IMG/VR virus record: IMGVR_UViG_638275430_000001 | Span: 86,274 to 150,273 of that record | Length of the DNA: 64,000 nucleotides | Source: a virus | Taxonomy: Duplodnaviria > Heunggongvirae > Uroviricota > Caudoviricetes | Strand: one strand, 5' to 3' | Part shown: piece after piece, positions 9,742 through 28,745 of the stretch | How positions within the stretch are numbered: position 1 is the first letter of the stretch | How the letters are laid out: each line of letters begins with the position of its first letter | Translations under genes and position numbers: made by a program | Notes under the pieces: model-generated | Databases searched by the model: none | What the model was told of the DNA's origin: nothing | What the model saw: the letters and a program-made list of their open reading frames with translations, nothing else

Positions 9742-9765
9742 AAAAAAGCCACCCGAAGGTGGCTT
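9742..9765 (-). terminator. Rho-independent terminator
   Basis: GCCAC-CTTCGG-GTGGC hairpin plus U6. Confidence 0.85.
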
Positions 9766-9782
9766 AAATTTATCTTAACTGA

Positions 9783-10061
9783 TTACTCACTATCCCAAGA
9801 CCGTTTTACGTTACGTCCATCACGACGAGGGCGAGACTTGTCTTTAGCCGGTTTTTCGATATGTTCACGTTCGTCCATGATGGACTTGATCAGATCGTAA
9901 TAATCGGCCAGATTGTGAGCGCGTTCCATATCCGCATCAGAACAATTCTGATTATCTGCATGATACTGTGCGGCAGCGCGAGACTTCAACACGGTTTTAC
10001 GCAGTGCATTCAGACGTTCGGTAGTCAGATTGCGGAGTTTTTTCTCAGTTAGAAATTCCAT
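9783..10061 (-). CDS. Hypothetical protein, 92 aa
   Basis: AGGA RBS; ends before a terminator. Confidence 0.7.
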   Translation of the reverse strand: MEFLTEKKLRNLTTERLNALRKTVLKSRAAAQYHADNQNCSDADMERAHNLADYYDLIKSIMDEREHIEKPAKDKSRPRRDGRNVKRSWDSE

Positions 10062-10110
10062 CTTTGTTTCCTACAGGTGGTTTTAATACACTATCACGAA
10101 TGACAGATTT

Positions 10111-10232
10111 TGGAGGGGAAGACGGGACTCGAACCCGCGACCAACAGTTTGAATTTGCGTTTATTTGCGGTAAAGAATCTTAATCAGATTCCGCTTTGTG
10201 CGACTACTGCTCTACCACTGAGCTACTTCCCC
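10111..10232 (-). ncRNA. tRNA-bodied RNA (CCA-ended) with the anticodon loop replaced by a ~54-nt motif insert
   Basis: GGGGAAG/CTTCCCC acceptor, T73-CCA, normal D and T arms; insert GAATCT-GATTA-AGATTCTTTACCGCAAAT. Confidence 0.8.
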
Positions 10233-10240
10233 AAATTTTT

Positions 10241-10376
10241 ACAACACTATGCTGGCGGTGCTGGAGTCGAACCAGCGTTACAGGCTTAACAGGCGAGTAT
10301 TTATTGCAGGAATCATTCTTGACAGAATGAATTTTACAGTGTCCTACCACTAGACGAACCGCCAGCATAATGTTGT
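10241..10376 (-). ncRNA. tRNA-bodied RNA, CCA-less, ~19-bp terminal clamp, motif hairpin in place of the anticodon arm
   Basis: Glu-like D arm CGTCTAGTGGTAGGAC; T arm GCTGG-TTCGACT-CCAGC; insert TCATTCT-GTCA-AGAATGATTCCTGCAAT. Confidence 0.8.
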
Positions 10377-10505
10377 TTGTTGTCGCGATACTGGATTCGA
10401 ACCAGTGACGTTTCTCGATGTGCCCACACGCAACGGAATCGAACCGTTCTCGATACTTCCTCGGCTAGAGGACGTTCTCCCAACTGAACTAATCGCGACA
10501 ACAAA
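10376..10505 (-). ncRNA. tRNA-like RNA with two T arms and a 14-bp terminal clamp
   Basis: D arm GTTC-AGTTGGGA-GAAC; AACGG-TTCGATT-CCGTT and ACTGG-TTCGAAT-CCAGT; no CCA. Confidence 0.75.
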
Positions 10506-10518
10506 ACTATATTAACAC

Positions 10519-10995
10519 TTATTTCTTAGAAGGTAAACCATTTTCGTTGAACTTTTTCACTGCGAGTTTGAACTTCAAACGAATACACGGCTCACGACTC
10601 GGATCCACTTTCATGATCTTGGCATTTCCACGGTGAATCAGCGAGTAAACATCTTCGATCTGATTCCGAGCAATCAGTTCCGCGAATTCTTCGCTGTATC
10701 GAATCTGGGTAGTGAAGTCAATAAACTCCTCGCCAGAAATCAGATCAACACAACGAGTTACGGCACCATCATACATGTAATCCGTATTCACAACAACACG
10801 AACATTACCAGCACCGTCGAAAGAGATCATCGGGATGCCGAGAGGACGTTTGTATGAAAGCATGATCAAACGATCTTTCTCTTTACGTTCTTCGTATTCT
10901 TTGCGCTTTTGTTCGATTCCAGCCCATTTGCCTTCTTCGACGATAGCAGTATAAGTATTCGGGAACAACAGTTTAGCCAGATATTTCATACTCAT
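10519..10995 (-). CDS. Hypothetical protein, 158 aa
   Basis: GAGG RBS. Confidence 0.7.
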   Translation of the reverse strand: MSMKYLAKLLFPNTYTAIVEEGKWAGIEQKRKEYEERKEKDRLIMLSYKRPLGIPMISFDGAGNVRVVVNTDYMYDGAVTRCVDLISGEEFIDFTTQIRYSEEFAELIARNQIEDVYSLIHRGNAKIMKVDPSREPCIRLKFKLAVKKFNENGLPSKK

Positions 10996-11025
10996 AATAA
11001 CTTCCTCATTGATTTGATATTCGTA

Positions 11026-11370
11026 TTATAGCGACTCTGGATTACCAGTCAAGCAAAAATATGCGATTGCGATCAAAATTTTACACACAACATGAAGTGC
11101 CTGATCTTGATGTAATCCAATCTTACCGTTGCACTTAGCATAATCGATGATCCAATGACTTACAAGCTCTGCCAAACTAAGCCAAACGCTCTTGGTTGCA
11201 ACGTATACCACAAGCGCATGGGTAGCACTATGGGCAGTTAGCCAGTAAATCCAATGCACTCCATAGAGTGGAGAGTTGATAGGATTCTTACCACGAGCAA
11301 TACTATCGGATTGCAGAACATAATCGGCCACAAAATGACCGATAATCAGAACATATAGAATCTCAAACAT
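11026..11370 (-). CDS. DUF3307-like membrane protein
   Basis: GHFVADYVLQ, H..HA, HWIIDYAK and DQALH pattern. Confidence 0.75.
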   Translation of the reverse strand: MFEILYVLIIGHFVADYVLQSDSIARGKNPINSPLYGVHWIYWLTAHSATHALVVYVATKSVWLSLAELVSHWIIDYAKCNGKIGLHQDQALHVVCKILIAIAYFCLTGNPESL

Positions 11371-12987: not shown

Positions 12988-14424
12988 TTAGAAGTCGATA
13001 CCGACGTAACGGTCGCTCATGATCTTGTCAAGCATGATTTGCATCGGGTTAAAGTCTTTCGCACTCAGGATTGTCTCCATGATTGCGGGACTGAAACCGG
13101 ACACCAACGCAGTGCCTTGATCATCTTTGGTCACCGGATTGTTAGTCGGGCGCGGGCAAAGATTCCAGAATACCAGCTTCGGCATTTCGTAACCAGCATC
13201 GCGGTAAGTCTGACGAATCACCTCAAAGTTGGTACGTTCGCGATCACGCATACGATAGTATCCGCTGTAACCGCCGTCAGCGATGTTGAATTCCATGTCA
13301 GACAAGACGACCATCATAGTCGGCATATCTTCTTGCGGAACTCGATTGCGTACAGCGCGATCAAGAATGATCTTGAATGCACCGGCAAAGTTGGTAGAGC
13401 CACCCCAAGGAGCGCGTCCCAGATGATTCACCATGCTTTGCAGATCGTCGCCTTTCGCTTTGATGTTGTAGAACTGAGGATTATCATCGAAGGTAATCAC
13501 TTCGTTCTTGAACACGCCACCAGAGCGTTCGCCGATATACAGACCCAGAGAAATCGCGATGTCCATAGCAGACAGACCAGCAACAGCAGTCGGAGTGCTC
13601 ATAGAACCGGAAACGTCAACCATTGCGATTACGTTTTCGGTAGAGCCAGCCATCCAGTCGCGTTGTGCTTTCCATTGCGCGTCAGCAGCAATAGAAGAAC
13701 CGGTACGCATGGACTTGATCATGTCATACGGGTAAACTGCACCAGCGTTGATCTTAGCCTCGCCCTTTTTCAGAGACTCAAGGTAAGCAACATAACGCTC
13801 GTTCGCGTTTTTCAGGAATGCTTTCTGATATCGAGCAGAAGCAACAGACGGCAGTTTACCGAACTCAATGCCATCCCACTGACGAGCACACATCTTTTGT
13901 TCAACGGTGTTCGACATACGGACGATAGTGTGACGGTATTCTTTGGCAGTCATCTGCATGGCTTTCGCTAGAATGCCAGCTTCTGAGCCTTTGCGCGGTG
14001 CCCACTTTGCAGCAAGACCGTTTTGCTTGGTCATGATTGCATCAACCATGATCGCAACAGCGGCGTCCTGAATCGGAGAGTTGAACATCGCTACCACATC
14101 TTTGAAGCGACCGATTTCAGGAGTGTTCATCAGAACAACGGTAGCATCAACCGGGTGACGGTGTGCAAGGACTTTCAGCAGGCGGATGAATTGTTCGCGT
14201 TCACCGGCACCACCGCGAATATCGCGAGCCCATTGCAGAATGCGAACAGCCCAGTCCGGAGACTCGGTATAAGCATCAACAAACATCTGAGTTAGATCTT
14301 TCCCGCGAGAGGAACCAATCTGAGAAAACAGATTCAGACACTTGTCGCCAGTAGTGTAGTTAGTAACAGCACCGTTAGCAGTGCGGGCTTGAGCTTGTAC
14401 CATTGCATTCATAAAAGTAGACAC
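12988..14424 (-). CDS. DUF2828 / vWA protein (Ro60/TROVE-like), 478 aa from GTG
   Basis: RTANGA, WARDIRGGAGER, AAKWAPR, KINAGAVYPYD, MIDAS DVSGS, GGSTN and LSDMEF; GAGGT RBS before the GTG at 14424. Confidence 0.85.
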   Translation of the reverse strand: MSTFMNAMVQAQARTANGAVTNYTTGDKCLNLFSQIGSSRGKDLTQMFVDAYTESPDWAVRILQWARDIRGGAGEREQFIRLLKVLAHRHPVDATVVLMNTPEIGRFKDVVAMFNSPIQDAAVAIMVDAIMTKQNGLAAKWAPRKGSEAGILAKAMQMTAKEYRHTIVRMSNTVEQKMCARQWDGIEFGKLPSVASARYQKAFLKNANERYVAYLESLKKGEAKINAGAVYPYDMIKSMRTGSSIAADAQWKAQRDWMAGSTENVIAMVDVSGSMSTPTAVAGLSAMDIAISLGLYIGERSGGVFKNEVITFDDNPQFYNIKAKGDDLQSMVNHLGRAPWGGSTNFAGAFKIILDRAVRNRVPQEDMPTMMVVLSDMEFNIADGGYSGYYRMRDRERTNFEVIRQTYRDAGYEMPKLVFWNLCPRPTNNPVTKDDQGTALVSGFSPAIMETILSAKDFNPMQIMLDKIMSDRYVGIDF

Positions 14425-24364: not shown

Positions 24365-24510
24365 CGGATTCACATACGGGAGCGGTGACTAACCCGCGTT
24401 ACTTTTATATGCTGTTCCCTCTCAGCCGCACATCCAACTACCGAAGCAAAGGAGTGCTATCCATTAATAGTAGAGTTTTGTTTTTGTATTGATTGCAGAA
24501 GTGAATCCAT
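24365..24510 (-). ncRNA. Motif RNA with a multi-hairpin interior
   Basis: GGATTCAC-TTCTGCAATCAAT ... GTGAATCC-G terminal stem. Confidence 0.7.
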
Positions 24511-24571
24511 GCAATTTCAAAGAGCAATTGAACTACTGTCGGGTAAGTTCATTTTCCTGCTAGGCAGAAAC

Positions 24572-24658
24572 TGGTGGAGAAGACTAGCTTCGATTCTAGT
24601 AAGGCTTGTAAAGCGGGCCCATCACGAGGACCTGAGACTCTTTATCTCTTACTTCTCC
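24572..24658 (-). ncRNA. Degenerate class II tRNA-like RNA with CCA
   Basis: GGAGAAG/CTTCTCC-A-CCA; GGTCC-TCGTGAT-GGGCC; non-canonical D and T loops. Confidence 0.6.
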
Positions 24659-24665
24659 ATAAAAC

Positions 24666-24740
24666 TGGCGGTGCATACGGGAATCGAACCCGTATCTTGT
24701 GATAGACAGTCACGAATAATAGCCATTATACTAATGCACC
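24666..24740 (-). tRNA. tRNA-Asp(GTC)
   Basis: Cloverleaf, loop CT-GTC-TA, G73-CCA. Confidence 0.95.
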
Positions 24741-24746
24741 TAAATT

Positions 24747-24821
24747 TGGTAGTCCCGAATGGTATCGAACCATCCACATCCGCGTTATCAGCACGGCGCT
24801 CTACCTCTGAGCTACGGGACT
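24747..24821 (-). tRNA. tRNA-Ile(GAT)
   Basis: Cloverleaf, loop CT-GAT-AA, CCA. Confidence 0.95.
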
Positions 24822-24826
24822 AAAGA

Positions 24827-24936
24827 CTGAAAGACTTTTTAACTGCCACCTGGACTCTTGTGCTAGAGAGTTGAGGAATCGAACCTCACCGTTTTCTTAA
24901 AATAGAAAAGTTATATTGATTGCTGAAATCTTTCTT
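24827..24936 (-). ncRNA. Motif RNA with a circularly permuted tRNA-like domain (YrlA-like layout)
   Basis: GAAAGATTT-CAGCAATCAAT ... AAGTCTTTC stem enclosing a hairpin, a T arm TGAGG-TTCGATT-CCTCA and a closed stem ACTCT/AGAGT. Confidence 0.7.
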
Positions 24937-24947
24937 AGCACGGTAAA

Positions 24948-25048
24948 TCATTATTGCGGAGGAGGTTGGACTCGAACCAACATAGGGTTATTACCCGCAG
25001 ATTAACAGTCTGCCGCTCAACCTTTGAGCCACACCTCCGCAATAATGA
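24948..25048 (-). ncRNA. tRNA-Asn(GTT)-like, long variable arm, CCA-less, terminal clamp
   Basis: Loop CT-GTT-AA; variable arm GGGTAATAACCC; TCATTATTGCGGAGG pairs with CCTCCGCAATAATGA. Confidence 0.8.
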
Positions 25049-25063
25049 CTTGCAAATAAGAAA

Positions 25064-25127
25064 CGGAATGAACTTTTAAGGCTATTTCAAATAATGGCTT
25101 TTTAAGTTAGTTGCTGAACTCATTCCT
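25064..25127 (-). ncRNA. Minimal motif RNA
   Basis: GGAATGAG-TTCAGCAACTAA ... TTCATTCC-G. Confidence 0.7.
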
Positions 25128-25137
25128 ATCTTTGTTT

Positions 25138-25167
25138 ACTATACACTACTATTTAGTGACTGTAAAC
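25138..25167 (-). promoter_or_regulatory. T4-type early promoter with an embedded CTAAATA
   Basis: GTTTACA-N17-TATAGT. Confidence 0.75.
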
Positions 25168-25187
25168 AAAGCATCTTAAATTTTTGA

Positions 25188-25242
25188 CAGGCTCACTTTT
25201 TGATTTCATCCGCAGAAAAGTTTTGATTGCTGAACGGAGCCT
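25188..25242 (-). ncRNA. Minimal motif RNA
   Basis: AGGCTC-CGTTCAGCAATCAA ... GAGCCT-G. Confidence 0.7.
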
Positions 25243-28624: not shown

Positions 28625-28745
28625 AACACATTGTCCGGGTGGCGGGACTCGAACCCACAACCCACTGCTTCTTCTGTACTCTCGTTAGAAAGCACAGGAG
28701 AAGGCAGATGCGCTATCCTGTTGCGCCACACCCGGACAATGTGTT
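28625..28745 (-). ncRNA. tRNA-Arg(TCT)-like with a 28-nt anticodon-arm insert, CCA-less, 17-bp clamp
   Basis: TCTGC-CTTCT[CCTGTGCTTTCTAACGAGAGTACAGAAG]AA-GCAGT; AACACATTGTCCGGGTG pairs with CACCCGGACAATGTGTT. Confidence 0.8.

What the first reader, a model, noticed from the sequence alone, without database searches (positions are those of the whole stretch)
10111..10376. Two tRNA bodies whose anticodon loop is replaced by the motif hairpin
Seen: both have normal D and T arms, but a 55-60-nt insert sits at the anticodon position. In that insert the motif helix is closed by a small loop (GATTA or GTCA) instead of being formed by the RNA ends, so it is the topological inverse of the 24827 element. 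The 10111 RNA keeps U73-CCA; the 10241 RNA has a Glu-like D arm and no CCA. Inference: a protein-binding tag grafted onto tRNA scaffolds, possibly tethering the Ro-like protein to aminoacyl-tRNA synthetases, EF-Tu or ribosomes.
Basis: partly seen in the sequence, partly recalled or inferred. Interest (0 to 1): 0.8.

Follow-up and report, generated by a model that had tools for sequence, protein, structure and literature searches.

The report
tRNA-bodied partner RNAs of phage Ro-like protein
Two small RNA genes of Aeromonas phage Aeh1 are complete tRNA shapes that carry an extra hairpin "handle", the same handle found on small RNAs beside a Ro60-like protein gene in many phages, so they are most likely that protein's partner RNAs and not broken tRNA genes.

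Summary
Both RNAs are real, on the minus strand: R1 at 10232-10111 and R2 at 10376-10241. They have tRNA acceptor, D and T arms plus a conserved hairpin followed by NUWUWCNGCAA. Covariation across 18 homologues supports every helix.

R1's anticodon loop is replaced, but R2 keeps an Asn-type loop (CUGUUAA). In R2 a 42-nt module is inserted into the 5' strand of the anticodon stem (29|30).

A covariance model separates such RNAs (72.8 bits or more) from ordinary tRNAs (60 or less). It finds them in KVP40 (annotated "tRNA-Pseudo"), Cronobacter S13, Citrobacter Ci1, a cyanophage and a megaphage. All nine cultured genomes tested also encode DUF2828, which occurs in 1.4% of phage records.

The same handle, with open ends, lies directly beside DUF2828 genes in Listeria, Mycobacterium, Felix O1-type and metagenomic phages. 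The Aeh1 DUF2828 protein folds like Ro60.

Best reading: unpermuted, tRNA-scaffolded Y-RNA analogues. Binding, processing and partners are untested, and excision to normal tRNAs is not excluded. This scan has reported the DUF2828-handle system, including tRNA-fused handles, on other DNA. I found no published description.

The parts
10111..10232 (-). R1: tRNA-shaped RNA with encoded U73-CCA. The anticodon loop is replaced by a 54-nt module (10202-10149) between the stem strands GUAGU (10207-10203) and ACUGU (10148-10144).
   Evidence: Sequence; Rfam tRNA 53 bits; model R1 107.6 bits; conserved with compensatory changes in PX29, Ah1 and phiAS5.
10165..10192 (-). R1 handle: helix GGAAUCU (10192-10186) / AGAUUCU (10180-10174), loop GAUUA, and the 11-mer CUUUACCGCAA (10175-10165).
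   Evidence: Handle helix 100% paired, 5 of 6 pairs covary. In the 11-mer, C6, G8 and C9 are invariant and U4 and A10 are present in 19 of 20 distinct sequences.
10241..10376 (-). R2: tRNA-shaped RNA with a Glu-like D arm and no CCA. The acceptor stem (10364-10358 / 10259-10253) is prolonged by 12 flank pairs (10376-10365 / 10252-10241).
   Evidence: Fold z-score -6.8; model R1 103.2 bits; D arm and variable loop compared with the phage tRNA-Glu.
10295..10336 (-). R2 module: a 42-nt insert between anticodon-stem nucleotides 29 and 30. Handle helix UCAUUCU (10330-10324) / AGAAUGA (10319-10313), loop GUCA, 11-mer GAUUCCUGCAA (10314-10304).
   Evidence: Split-stem parse; alignments A2 and A4.
10281..10294 (-). 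R2 retained anticodon mini stem-loop: GC (10294-10293), loop CUGUUAA (10292-10286, GUU = Asn type), 3' strand GCCUG (10285-10281).
   Evidence: Removing the insert in silico leaves a 75-nt sequence of ordinary tRNA size (read to a matching end rather than a CCA terminus) with an Asn-type loop.
12988..14412 (-). Gene for the DUF2828 + DUF7788(vWA) protein, a Ro60-like fold. It lies 2.6 kb upstream of the RNAs on the same strand.
   Evidence: Pfam; AF2 pLDDT 87.6; the top 13 PDB matches are all Ro60/TROVE, E 3e-9 to 6e-6; MIDAS residues D266, S268, S270, T340 and D372 are invariant.
24365..25242 (-). Four open-ended RNAs with the same handle: about 24545-24365, 24955-24822 (with a T arm, YrlA-like), 25128-25064 and 25242-25188.
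   Evidence: Read directly; two of the four were recovered by my scanner.
9746..11052 (-). Likely transcription unit: promoter-like site 11052-11025, a 158-aa ORF, then R3, R2, R1, a 92-aa ORF, and a terminator-like hairpin at 9765-9746.
   Evidence: Consensus scan only; ORF list.

Best explanation
R1 and R2 are non-coding partner RNAs (Y-RNA analogues) of the phage's Ro60-like DUF2828 protein, built on unpermuted tRNA bodies.

The handle is a 6-7-bp helix. An A-rich stretch lies on its 5' side and NUWUWCNGCAA lies on its 3' side. I take it to be the protein-binding site. In most RNAs of this system the handle helix is formed by the RNA ends and encloses a variable cargo. Here the helix is capped by a small loop and grafted onto a tRNA. 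In R1 it replaces the anticodon loop. In R2 it is a side arm inserted between nucleotides 29 and 30 of the anticodon stem. The tRNA is therefore the cargo.

The RNAs are probably cut from an early polycistronic transcript by tRNA-processing enzymes. R1 ends in CCA like a tRNA. R2's ends are locked in a roughly 19-bp duplex. The tRNA body then acts as the effector module, as in bacterial YrlA. It would bring the Ro-like ring to a factor that recognises tRNA, such as a tRNA repair, decay or modification enzyme or an anticodon nuclease, or it would serve as a protein-tagged tRNA decoy.

Shown: the anatomy, conservation, covariation, genomic linkage to DUF2828, and the Ro60-like fold. Inferred: binding, processing, and the identity of any tRNA-side partner.
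For: 1. Structure. Every helix covaries. Model R1 scores handle-bearing tRNA bodies at 72.8-118.9 bits against at most 60 bits for ordinary tRNAs.

2. Wide conservation. Homologues occur in Aeromonas phages (PX29, Ah1, phiAS5, Ahp1), Vibrio phages (QD01, KVP40 with 5 copies, nt-1), Cronobacter S13, Citrobacter Ci1, Synechococcus phage BUCT-ZZ01, a 735-kb megaphage and IMG/VR contigs. The insert is the best-conserved part.

3. Linkage to DUF2828.
- 9 of 9 tested genomes encode DUF2828, against 701 of 50,697 phage records overall and 0 of 14 control genomes.
- The RNAs lie directly downstream of the gene on the same strand in BUCT-ZZ01 (about 0.15 kb), S13 and Ci1 (roughly 1 kb), and Aeh1 and PX29 (about 3 kb).
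- 4 of 8 near-complete DUF2828-bearing contigs hold such RNAs.

4. The handle itself is tied to the gene.
- The strict 5'-strand motif occurs 0-400 nt after the DUF2828 stop in 14 of 77 loci, where about 1 is expected.
- Open-ended handle RNAs flank the gene in Listeria LP-064, Mycobacterium phage Snenia, Felix O1-type wV8 and metagenomic phages.
- The middle Snenia RNA gives a sub-threshold Rfam YrlA hit: 39 bits, E 2e-5.

5. Protein. The full-length fold matches Ro60 from Xenopus, human, Deinococcus and Thermus phage phiLo, with an intact MIDAS site.

6. Precedent. YrlA is a tRNA mimic bound by Ro60, encoded within 4 kb on the same strand. M. smegmatis YrlA is opened by RNase P and receives CCA (PMC4201824).
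Against: No RNA or binding data exist. No RNA-seq holder was listed for this stretch.

The Rfam YrlA model does not hit anything in window 9000-30000 even at E<=1. The handle lacks the GNCGAAN0-1G/CGAA motif of known Ro60 ligands. Pfam TROVE does not match the protein at E<=0.01.

Only 5 of the 80 DUF2828 loci have a tRNA-bodied handle within 10 kb. In KVP40-type phages and the megaphage the RNAs lie 10-134 kb from the gene, so linkage there is by co-occurrence only.

The strict retention of anticodon-like loops (U33, A37, A38) in the split type is not required by a simple tethering model. It fits a real tRNA function equally well.
Confidence: 0.6

Rival explanations
1. They are functional tRNA genes with a new kind of removable insert. 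The module is excised and the halves rejoined, for example by phage RNA ligase. This gives normal tRNAs (Asn-GUU for R2), perhaps conditionally, and the Ro-like protein might mark the site.
For: - Deleting the insert in silico leaves 74-75-nt sequences of ordinary tRNA size, each with a perfect 5-bp anticodon stem and a 7-nt loop typical of a specific tRNA: CUGUUAA, CUUCUAA, AUGAUAA, AUCAUAA, AUCCUAA or AUUCCAA.
- The split stem covaries: GC/GC, CC/GG, AUC/GAU, UGC/GCA.
- Most CCA-ended members encode CCA.
- Three of four GUU-type RNAs have G73, read. That G73 is an Asn identity element is from my own knowledge.
- Aeh1's other Asn-GUU gene (24956-25038) is itself aberrant.
Against: - No splicing route is known in bacteria or phages for 40-50-nt inserts at 29/30. 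There are no group I features and no Rfam intron hit.
- The insert is the most conserved part, and its handle also occurs on RNAs that are not tRNAs.
- Loop-replacement members such as R1 have no recoverable anticodon loop.
- Canonical tRNAs with the same anticodon coexist in the same phages: Gly-UCC in S13/L084, Ile-GAU in L135, CAU in BUCT-ZZ01. They are only 67-71% identical to the handle-bearing copies.
- R2-type ends are buried in a long duplex without CCA.
Confidence: 0.13
2. They are tRNA decoys or mimics that act without the DUF2828 protein. The handle would be a folding element or a site for another factor, host or phage, and the co-occurrence with DUF2828 would reflect shared ancestry of large T4-like genomes.
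For: In KVP40-type phages and the megaphage the RNAs are far from the gene. Most examples come from related myoviruses with tRNA arrays. The A-rich and U-rich single strands could bind general RNA chaperones (inference only).
Against: - The handle sits directly beside DUF2828 genes in phages of Firmicutes, Actinobacteria, Proteobacteria and Cyanobacteria that share little else.
- The RNAs are immediately adjacent to the gene in BUCT-ZZ01, S13, Ci1, L084 and L135.
- Co-occurrence is 9 of 9 against a 1.4% background.
Confidence: 0.15
3. They are decaying tRNA pseudogenes with chance insertions. This is how GenBank annotates them: 'tRNA-Pseudo', 'tRNA-OTHER', or an intron-containing 'tRNA-Leu'.
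For: Public annotation. The literature on KVP40 and phi-pp2 calls such genes low-score pseudo-forms (PMC3468402). tRNAscan counted 3 pseudo tRNAs in Aeh1 (PMC1524935).
Against: Compensatory changes occur in every helix, including the insert. Insert sequences are conserved between Aeromonas, Vibrio, enterobacterial and cyanobacterial phages. Copies recur in multiples per genome.
Confidence: 0.02

Closest known systems
YrlA, the tRNA-like bacterial and mycobacteriophage Y RNA bound by Ro60/Rsr (Rfam RF02553; Chen et al. 2014, PMC4201824; structure preprint 10.1101/312249)
   Same: A small RNA encoded near a Ro60-type ring protein and on the same strand. It is modular: a protein-binding helix with a conserved single-stranded 5' motif, plus a tRNA-like domain with authentic T and D arms. 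The protein-binding module sits where the anticodon arm would be.
   Different: YrlA is a circularly permuted tRNA. Its acceptor stem is closed by a loop, its RNA ends lie in the Ro-binding helix, and it has no CCA and no anticodon loop. R1 and R2 are the reverse: natural tRNA ends, the handle closed by a loop, and in R2 a retained anticodon loop. The motif is NUWUWCNGCAA, not GNCGAAN0-1G. The Rfam model does not detect them. The protein belongs to Pfam DUF2828, not TROVE.
[quoted passage not shown]
   Same: It ends up with an open, CCA-tailed acceptor stem on a Ro-bound tRNA mimic. That is functionally the topology of R1.
   Different: It is a two-piece RNA made by cleavage of a permuted precursor. 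R1 is encoded as one continuous chain in the normal tRNA order.
Thermus phage phiLo Ro60 with Yrl1/Yrl2 (PMC12135203; PDB 9KOP, 9L5Y)
   Same: A phage-encoded Ro60-fold protein with adjacent partner RNAs. It is the best structural match to the Aeh1 protein model.
   Different: The phiLo RNAs are open stem-bulge-stem Y RNAs with a CGAA motif and no tRNA body. Binding to host PNPase was shown there and nothing is shown here.
Class I RNAs of dictyostelid amoebae (Kjellin et al. 2021, PMC7919456)
   Same: A 6-bp covarying stem joins the RNA ends, with a conserved, largely unpaired 11-nt motif directly 3' of the 5' stem strand. The paper gives T3, C6, C9, A10 and A11 as near-invariant. The phage 11-mer has C6, C9, A10 and A11, plus U4. 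One phage copy (L144) reads CCUUACAGCAA, which I recall as the D. discoideum consensus (from memory, not checked).
   Different: Eukaryotic, about 60 nt, with no tRNA body. The known direct binder is an RRM protein (Rnp1A). Any link to DUF2828 proteins of eukaryotes is untested here. The lead came from earlier notes of this scan.
Intron-containing tRNAs (bacterial group I introns; archaeal bulge-helix-bulge introns, some recalled at 29/30)
   Same: An insertion in the anticodon arm whose removal would give a standard tRNA.
   Different: At 42-54 nt the insert is far too small for group I, and no splicing endonuclease system is known in these hosts. The insert is a conserved motif shared with non-tRNA RNAs.

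Membership tests
YrlA / bacterial Y RNA (RF02553) | Encoded within about 4 kb of a Ro60-type gene, on the same strand | tested here: met
   R1 and R2 (10111-10376, minus strand) lie 2.6 kb downstream of the DUF2828 gene (12988-14412, minus strand). The criterion is from PMC4201824.
YrlA / bacterial Y RNA (RF02553) | Match to the Rfam covariance model at its gathering score (69 bits) | tested here: not met
   There is no YrlA hit in window 9000-30000 even at E<=1. A related open-ended RNA in Mycobacterium phage Snenia reaches 39.3 bits.
YrlA / bacterial Y RNA (RF02553) | 5'-strand Ro-binding motif GNCGAAN0-1G | tested here: not met
   The handle reads CUUUACCGCAA (R1) and GAUUCCUGCAA (R2). The consensus is NUWUWCNGCAA.
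YrlA / bacterial Y RNA (RF02553) | tRNA-like T and D arms | tested here: met
   Rfam tRNA 53 bits for R1. GGUUCGA(N)UCC T loops and A14/G18G19-type D loops are conserved, and both stems covary.
YrlA / bacterial Y RNA (RF02553) | Permuted order (T arm, closed acceptor stem, D arm) with the RNA ends in the Ro-binding helix | tested here: not met
   The order is that of a normal tRNA, the ends lie at the acceptor stem, and the handle is closed by GAUUA or GUCA.
YrlA / bacterial Y RNA (RF02553) | Bound by the Ro60 orthologue in vivo | not testable with these tools
   Needs immunoprecipitation or EMSA.
Canonical tRNA (RF00005) | Continuous 5-bp anticodon stem closing a 7-nt loop | tested here: not met
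   R1 has a 54-nt 'loop'. In R2 the stem is interrupted by 42 nt between 29 and 30, although a 7-nt loop is kept. ARAGORN calls neither.
Canonical tRNA (RF00005) | Mature 3' CCA and aminoacylation | not testable with these tools
   CCA is encoded in R1 (UCCA) and absent in R2. Charging needs an acid-urea gel.
Group I intron-containing tRNA | Intron of about 200 nt or more with a P1-P9 core in the anticodon loop | tested here: not met
   The inserts are 42-54 nt and there is no Rfam intron hit.
Ro60 / TROVE proteins (for the DUF2828 partner) | Alpha-helical (HEAT-type) ring domain followed by a vWA domain with a MIDAS site | tested here: met
   The AF2 model (pLDDT 87.6, pTM 0.88) has 13 top Foldseek hits that are all Ro60, aligned over 517-592 columns with TM 0.35-0.59. 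DxSxS...T...D is invariant.
Ro60 / TROVE proteins (for the DUF2828 partner) | Match to Pfam TROVE (PF05731) | tested here: not met
   Only DUF2828, DUF7788, VWA_2 and VWA_CoxE match at E<=0.01. A sequence search of the PDB finds no Ro60.
DUF2828-linked 'handle' RNAs (uncatalogued; defined here and in earlier notes of this scan) | A 6-8-bp covarying helix whose one strand continues NUWUWCNGCAA and whose partner strand follows an A-rich stretch, in a genome that encodes DUF2828 | tested here: met
   Open-ended members lie beside the gene.

The most novel reading that the evidence does not exclude
The split-stem members (R2 type) are conditional tRNAs. They would be complete tRNAs, such as Asn-GUU in Aeh1, kept off the ribosome by a Ro-handle arm at position 29|30. 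The arm would be removed, or the cleaved RNA re-sealed, by a protein-guided cut-and-ligate pathway marked by the Ro-like ring and using phage or host RNA repair enzymes. That would be a new kind of tRNA insert or switch in bacteria and phages, used during tRNA-targeted conflict with the host.
Probability: 0.07. Interest if true: 0.95.

Novelty: new variant of a known kind. Interest (0 to 1): 0.77.

Why it matters
Ro60 and its Y RNAs are an old, poorly understood RNA-surveillance system. The partner of the tRNA-like module of bacterial YrlA is still unknown.

These phage RNAs present a whole, unpermuted tRNA with a CCA end, and in one subtype with an authentic anticodon loop, on a Ro-type handle. 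They occur in tractable, long-studied phages (KVP40, Aeh1, Cronobacter S13). The question "what does the tRNA part of a Y RNA do?" therefore becomes directly testable.

The finding also re-labels a recurrent class of "pseudo-tRNA" annotations. It extends Ro-like RNPs to the large DUF2828 family: 701 phage records, and more than 7,900 database proteins at E<=1e-5. It also shows a natural tRNA architecture with an extra arm in the anticodon stem that I did not find described.

Tried and rejected
- Pattern scan of IMG/VR with AGAATGANTYCTGCAAT. All 71 hits were chance matches inside coding sequence, so the scan was useless.
- My rigid hairpin and open-handle scanners have low specificity (3-4 false hits per 64 kb strand) and missed two of the four open handles in the window. 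I replaced them with the covariance model and the strict 10-mer count.
- Expression. No RNA holder was listed for this stretch. Laying four runs gave 'joints' at 10142/10207-10209. These are ordinary tRNAs of other organisms with 18-21 other letters between, not spliced forms. One DNA run holds a close relative of the whole stretch. None of this bears on expression or splicing.
- Literature. Full text for 'DUF2828' gave five unrelated papers. Searches on YrlA/phage and Ro60/phage found no description of these RNAs. The two Wolin-lab reviews and the supplement of Chen et al. 2014 are not held, so an earlier mention there cannot be excluded.
- MFE folding of single sequences did not recover the cloverleaf for R1. 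I relied on comparative structure instead.
- My parsing script mis-parsed two rows (window R1 and Ahp1) because of an early TTCAA match and an irregular T stem. I read those two by eye.

Full report
**Source.** The window is part of Aeromonas phage Aeh1, a T4-like myovirus. The record is 233,234 bases, the size published for Aeh1, and its closest relatives are PX29, Ah1, avDM12 and phiAS5. Everything discussed here is on the minus strand.

**Observation.** Between two small ORFs lie three tRNA-like genes in a row: R3 (10500-10377), R2 (10376-10241) and R1 (10232-10111). The finding concerns R1 and R2.

- R1 has a 7-bp acceptor stem followed by U-CCA, and D and T arms. Rfam's tRNA model scores it 53 bits with a large insertion. 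ARAGORN does not call it.
- R2 has the acceptor UGGCGGU/ACCGCCA, prolonged by 12 more pairs formed with the flanks, and no CCA. Its D arm and 4-nt variable loop are nearly identical to the phage's own tRNA-Glu.
- Both carry a hairpin: GGAAUCU-GAUUA-AGAUUCU in R1 and UCAUUCU-GUCA-AGAAUGA in R2. An A-rich stretch precedes it and an 11-mer ending in GCAA follows it.
- The same helix-plus-11-mer, with the helix formed by distant strands, occurs at 24545-24365, 24955-24822, 25128-25064 and 25242-25188.

**Is it more than chance?** Blastn found the three-gene cluster in seven related Aeromonas phages. It also found single RNAs in Vibrio phage QD01, a 735-kb uncultured megaphage, Synechococcus phage BUCT-ZZ01 and Aeromonas phage Ahp1.

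On an alignment of 18 such RNAs, a structure of acceptor, D, lower anticodon, handle and T helices is 96.5% paired. Changes on both sides occur in 21 of 24 pairs. No shuffle of 500 reaches this, and slid registers give 39-50% paired. The handle helix is 100% paired and 5 of its 6 pairs covary.

A covariance model built from this alignment splits cleanly. Handle-bearing tRNA bodies score 72.8-118.9 bits and ordinary tRNAs score 60 bits or less. In the whole Aeh1 genome only R1 and R2 score high.

**Corrected anatomy.** With 25 examples aligned, two layouts appear.

- *Loop replacement* (R1, the first RNA of the Cronobacter S13 pair, QD01_c, L144 and others). A contiguous 5-bp anticodon-type stem (GUAGU/ACUGU in R1, with G-U to A-U and U-G to U-A changes in relatives) encloses the module.
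- *Split stem* (R2, and 15 of the 25 as parsed, a sixteenth by eye). The module of 40-49 nt is inserted in the 5' strand of the anticodon stem after nucleotide 28 or 29. The last two or three nucleotides of that strand follow the insert and close a 7-nt loop. Examples: ACG|insert|GC-CUGUUAA-GCCGU, CGU|insert|CC-AUCAUAA-GGACG, CUU|insert|CC-AUUCCAA-GGAAG.

The small upper helix covaries (GC/GC, CC/GG, AUC/GAU, UGC/GCA). The loops are typical anticodon loops with U33 and A37-A38 (GUU, UCU, GAU, CAU, CCU, UCC).

R2 reads CUG|42 nt|GC-CUGUUAA-GCCUG, so its anticodon loop is retained, not replaced. Removing the inserts in silico gives 74-75-nt sequences of ordinary tRNA size.

The 11-mer after the handle helix is NUWUWCNGCAA. 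C6, G8 and C9 are invariant, and U4 and A10 are present in 19 of 20 distinct sequences.

**Link to the Ro-like protein.** The gene at 12988-14412 (minus strand) matches Pfam DUF2828 plus DUF7788/vWA.

An AlphaFold model built on 62 homologues (pLDDT 87.6, pTM 0.88) has 13 best PDB matches. All are Ro60: Thermus phage phiLo, Xenopus, human and Deinococcus Rsr. They align over the full length at E 3e-9 to 6e-6, and isolated vWA domains follow. The MIDAS residues are invariant. Pfam TROVE and a sequence search of the PDB do not detect the relationship.

Three lines tie the RNAs to this gene.

1. *Co-occurrence.* All nine cultured genomes with tRNA-bodied handles that I tested encode DUF2828: QD01, the megaphage, BUCT-ZZ01, Ahp1, PX29, KVP40, Ci1, nt-1 and S13. 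The family is present in 701 of 50,697 phage records and in none of 14 control genomes.
2. *Adjacency.* The RNAs lie directly downstream on the same strand in BUCT-ZZ01 (about 0.15 kb), S13 and Ci1 (roughly 1 kb), L135 (immediately upstream), and Aeh1 and PX29 (about 3 kb). In KVP40-type phages they are 10-13 kb away.
3. *The handle sits beside the gene.*
 - In 80 IMG/VR loci centred on DUF2828, the strict motif TTC[AT]GCAA[TC] falls within 0-400 nt of the stop codon in 14 of 77 loci, against about one expected. The sequences there are open-ended stem-motif-cargo-stem RNAs.
 - Three such RNAs precede the gene in Listeria phage LP-064.
 - Three follow the "Ro-like RNA binding protein" gene of Mycobacterium phage Snenia.
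 - One lies in the tRNA array after the gene in Felix O1-type wV8.
 - The middle Snenia RNA encloses a T arm, a closed acceptor stem and a D arm. It gives a sub-threshold Rfam YrlA hit of 39 bits at E 2e-5. This connects the system to known Y RNAs.

**Mechanism.** I take the handle to be the binding site of the Ro-like ring and the tRNA body to be the cargo or effector module. The closest analogue is YrlA, a Ro60-bound tRNA mimic encoded within 4 kb of rsr on the same strand (PMC4201824). YrlA is a permuted tRNA with a closed acceptor stem, no CCA and no anticodon loop (10.1101/312249). R1 and R2 are the unpermuted form.

R1 encodes CCA, as do many relatives. It would be expected to be processed like a tRNA, as was seen for M. 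smegmatis YrlA, which RNase P opens and which receives CCA. R2 and the QD01 "type B" RNAs instead bury their ends in 17-20-bp duplexes whose sequences differ between lineages, so the clamp appears to be selected.

A promoter-like site (11052-11025) and a terminator-like hairpin (9765-9746) bracket the unit. This is consensus evidence only.

What the tRNA side contacts is unknown. An RtcB ligase lies near the gene in the Listeria phage, and bacterial rsr-yrlA is linked to an RNA repair operon induced by damaged tRNAs (PMC7790460, listed). These point to tRNA damage and repair. That is inference.

**Rivals.** The main rival is excision to functional tRNAs. The exons of split-type RNAs make perfect tRNAs, and the loops are under obvious constraint. 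Against it:

- no mechanism is known in these hosts or phages;
- the insert is the best-conserved part and is shared with non-tRNA RNAs;
- R1-type members have no anticodon loop;
- canonical tRNAs with the same anticodon coexist in three phages and are only 67-71% identical to the handle-bearing copies.

I cannot exclude it without RNA data.

Decay as pseudogenes, which is the public annotation, is contradicted by the covariation.

A function independent of DUF2828 is unlikely, because the handle sits beside that gene in phages that share little else.

**Comparison and novelty.** These RNAs fail three defining tests for YrlA membership: the model score, the motif and the permuted topology. They work like YrlA in layout and genomic context.

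The handle has the same layout as dictyostelid Class I RNAs: a 6-bp terminal stem plus an unpaired 11-nt motif with C6, C9, A10 and A11 conserved (PMC7919456). This lead came from earlier notes of this scan, and I checked only the layout.

Earlier follow-ups of this scan reported the DUF2828-handle system, including handles fused to tRNA bodies, in other genomes. I found no published description. What this report adds:

- the two distinct graft points, including the side arm at 29|30 with a preserved anticodon loop;
- the CCA-ended and clamped end types;
- the identification of KVP40, S13 and Ci1 "pseudo-tRNAs" as members;
- the redundancy test against the intron reading.

Noticed in passing
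window 10377-10500 (-): A third tRNA-like RNA (R3) lies directly 5' of R2. It has normal acceptor, D and T arms. A 5-bp hairpin with a 4-5-nt loop sits where the anticodon arm should be, and it covaries among relatives (CCUC/GAGG, CUUUG/CAAAG, CUCUG/CAGAG). A second T-arm-like hairpin (AACGG-UUCGAUU-CCGUU) lies in the variable region. It has no handle motif. Parts of it are annotated as tRNA-OTHER or tRNA-Ala in PX29 and phiWae14.
   Followed up: partly
window 28634-28735 (-): A tRNA-Arg(UCU)-like body (Rfam tRNA 49.8 bits, missed by ARAGORN). Its anticodon arm is extended into a roughly 20-bp rod closed by UAAC. It has no handle motif and no CCA.
   Followed up: no
window 24956-25038 (-): The gene called tRNA-Asn(GUU) is 83 nt, has a long variable arm, lacks CCA, and has flanks that pair. 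Aeh1 may therefore have no canonical Asn tRNA, and R2 also carries a GUU loop.
   Followed up: no
L167 2950-2995 (Vibrio phage ValKK3): An open-ended handle (GACAUU-UUACAGCAAU...AAUGUC) lies in the 5' leader of the DUF2828 gene itself. Its 3' helix strand overlaps the AUG and the Shine-Dalgarno sequence lies inside the enclosed loop. This suggests the protein may repress its own translation.
   Followed up: no
L165 1429-1980 and 5813-7024 (Listeria phage LP-064): A ROOL RNA match (87 bits, below the gathering score of 99) lies about 1 kb upstream of the DUF2828 gene and its three handle RNAs. An RtcB-like ligase and a phosphohydrolase lie just downstream.
   Followed up: no
L179 (Vibrio phage KVP40, record 179301-181843): KVP40 carries five handle-bearing tRNA bodies (79-92 bits). 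Three are annotated tRNA-Pseudo-3, -4 and -5, and two are unannotated.
   Followed up: partly
L093 1317-1767: ARAGORN calls a tmRNA (tag ANTNFALAA) on a phage contig fragment that also carries DUF2828 and a handle-bearing tRNA body.
   Followed up: no
L084-L163 (80 IMG/VR loci): DUF2828 genes are very often followed on the same strand by long tRNA arrays: model R1 found about 300 ordinary tRNA hits, almost all on the gene's strand. The protein family is thus generally embedded in phage tRNA regions.
   Followed up: no
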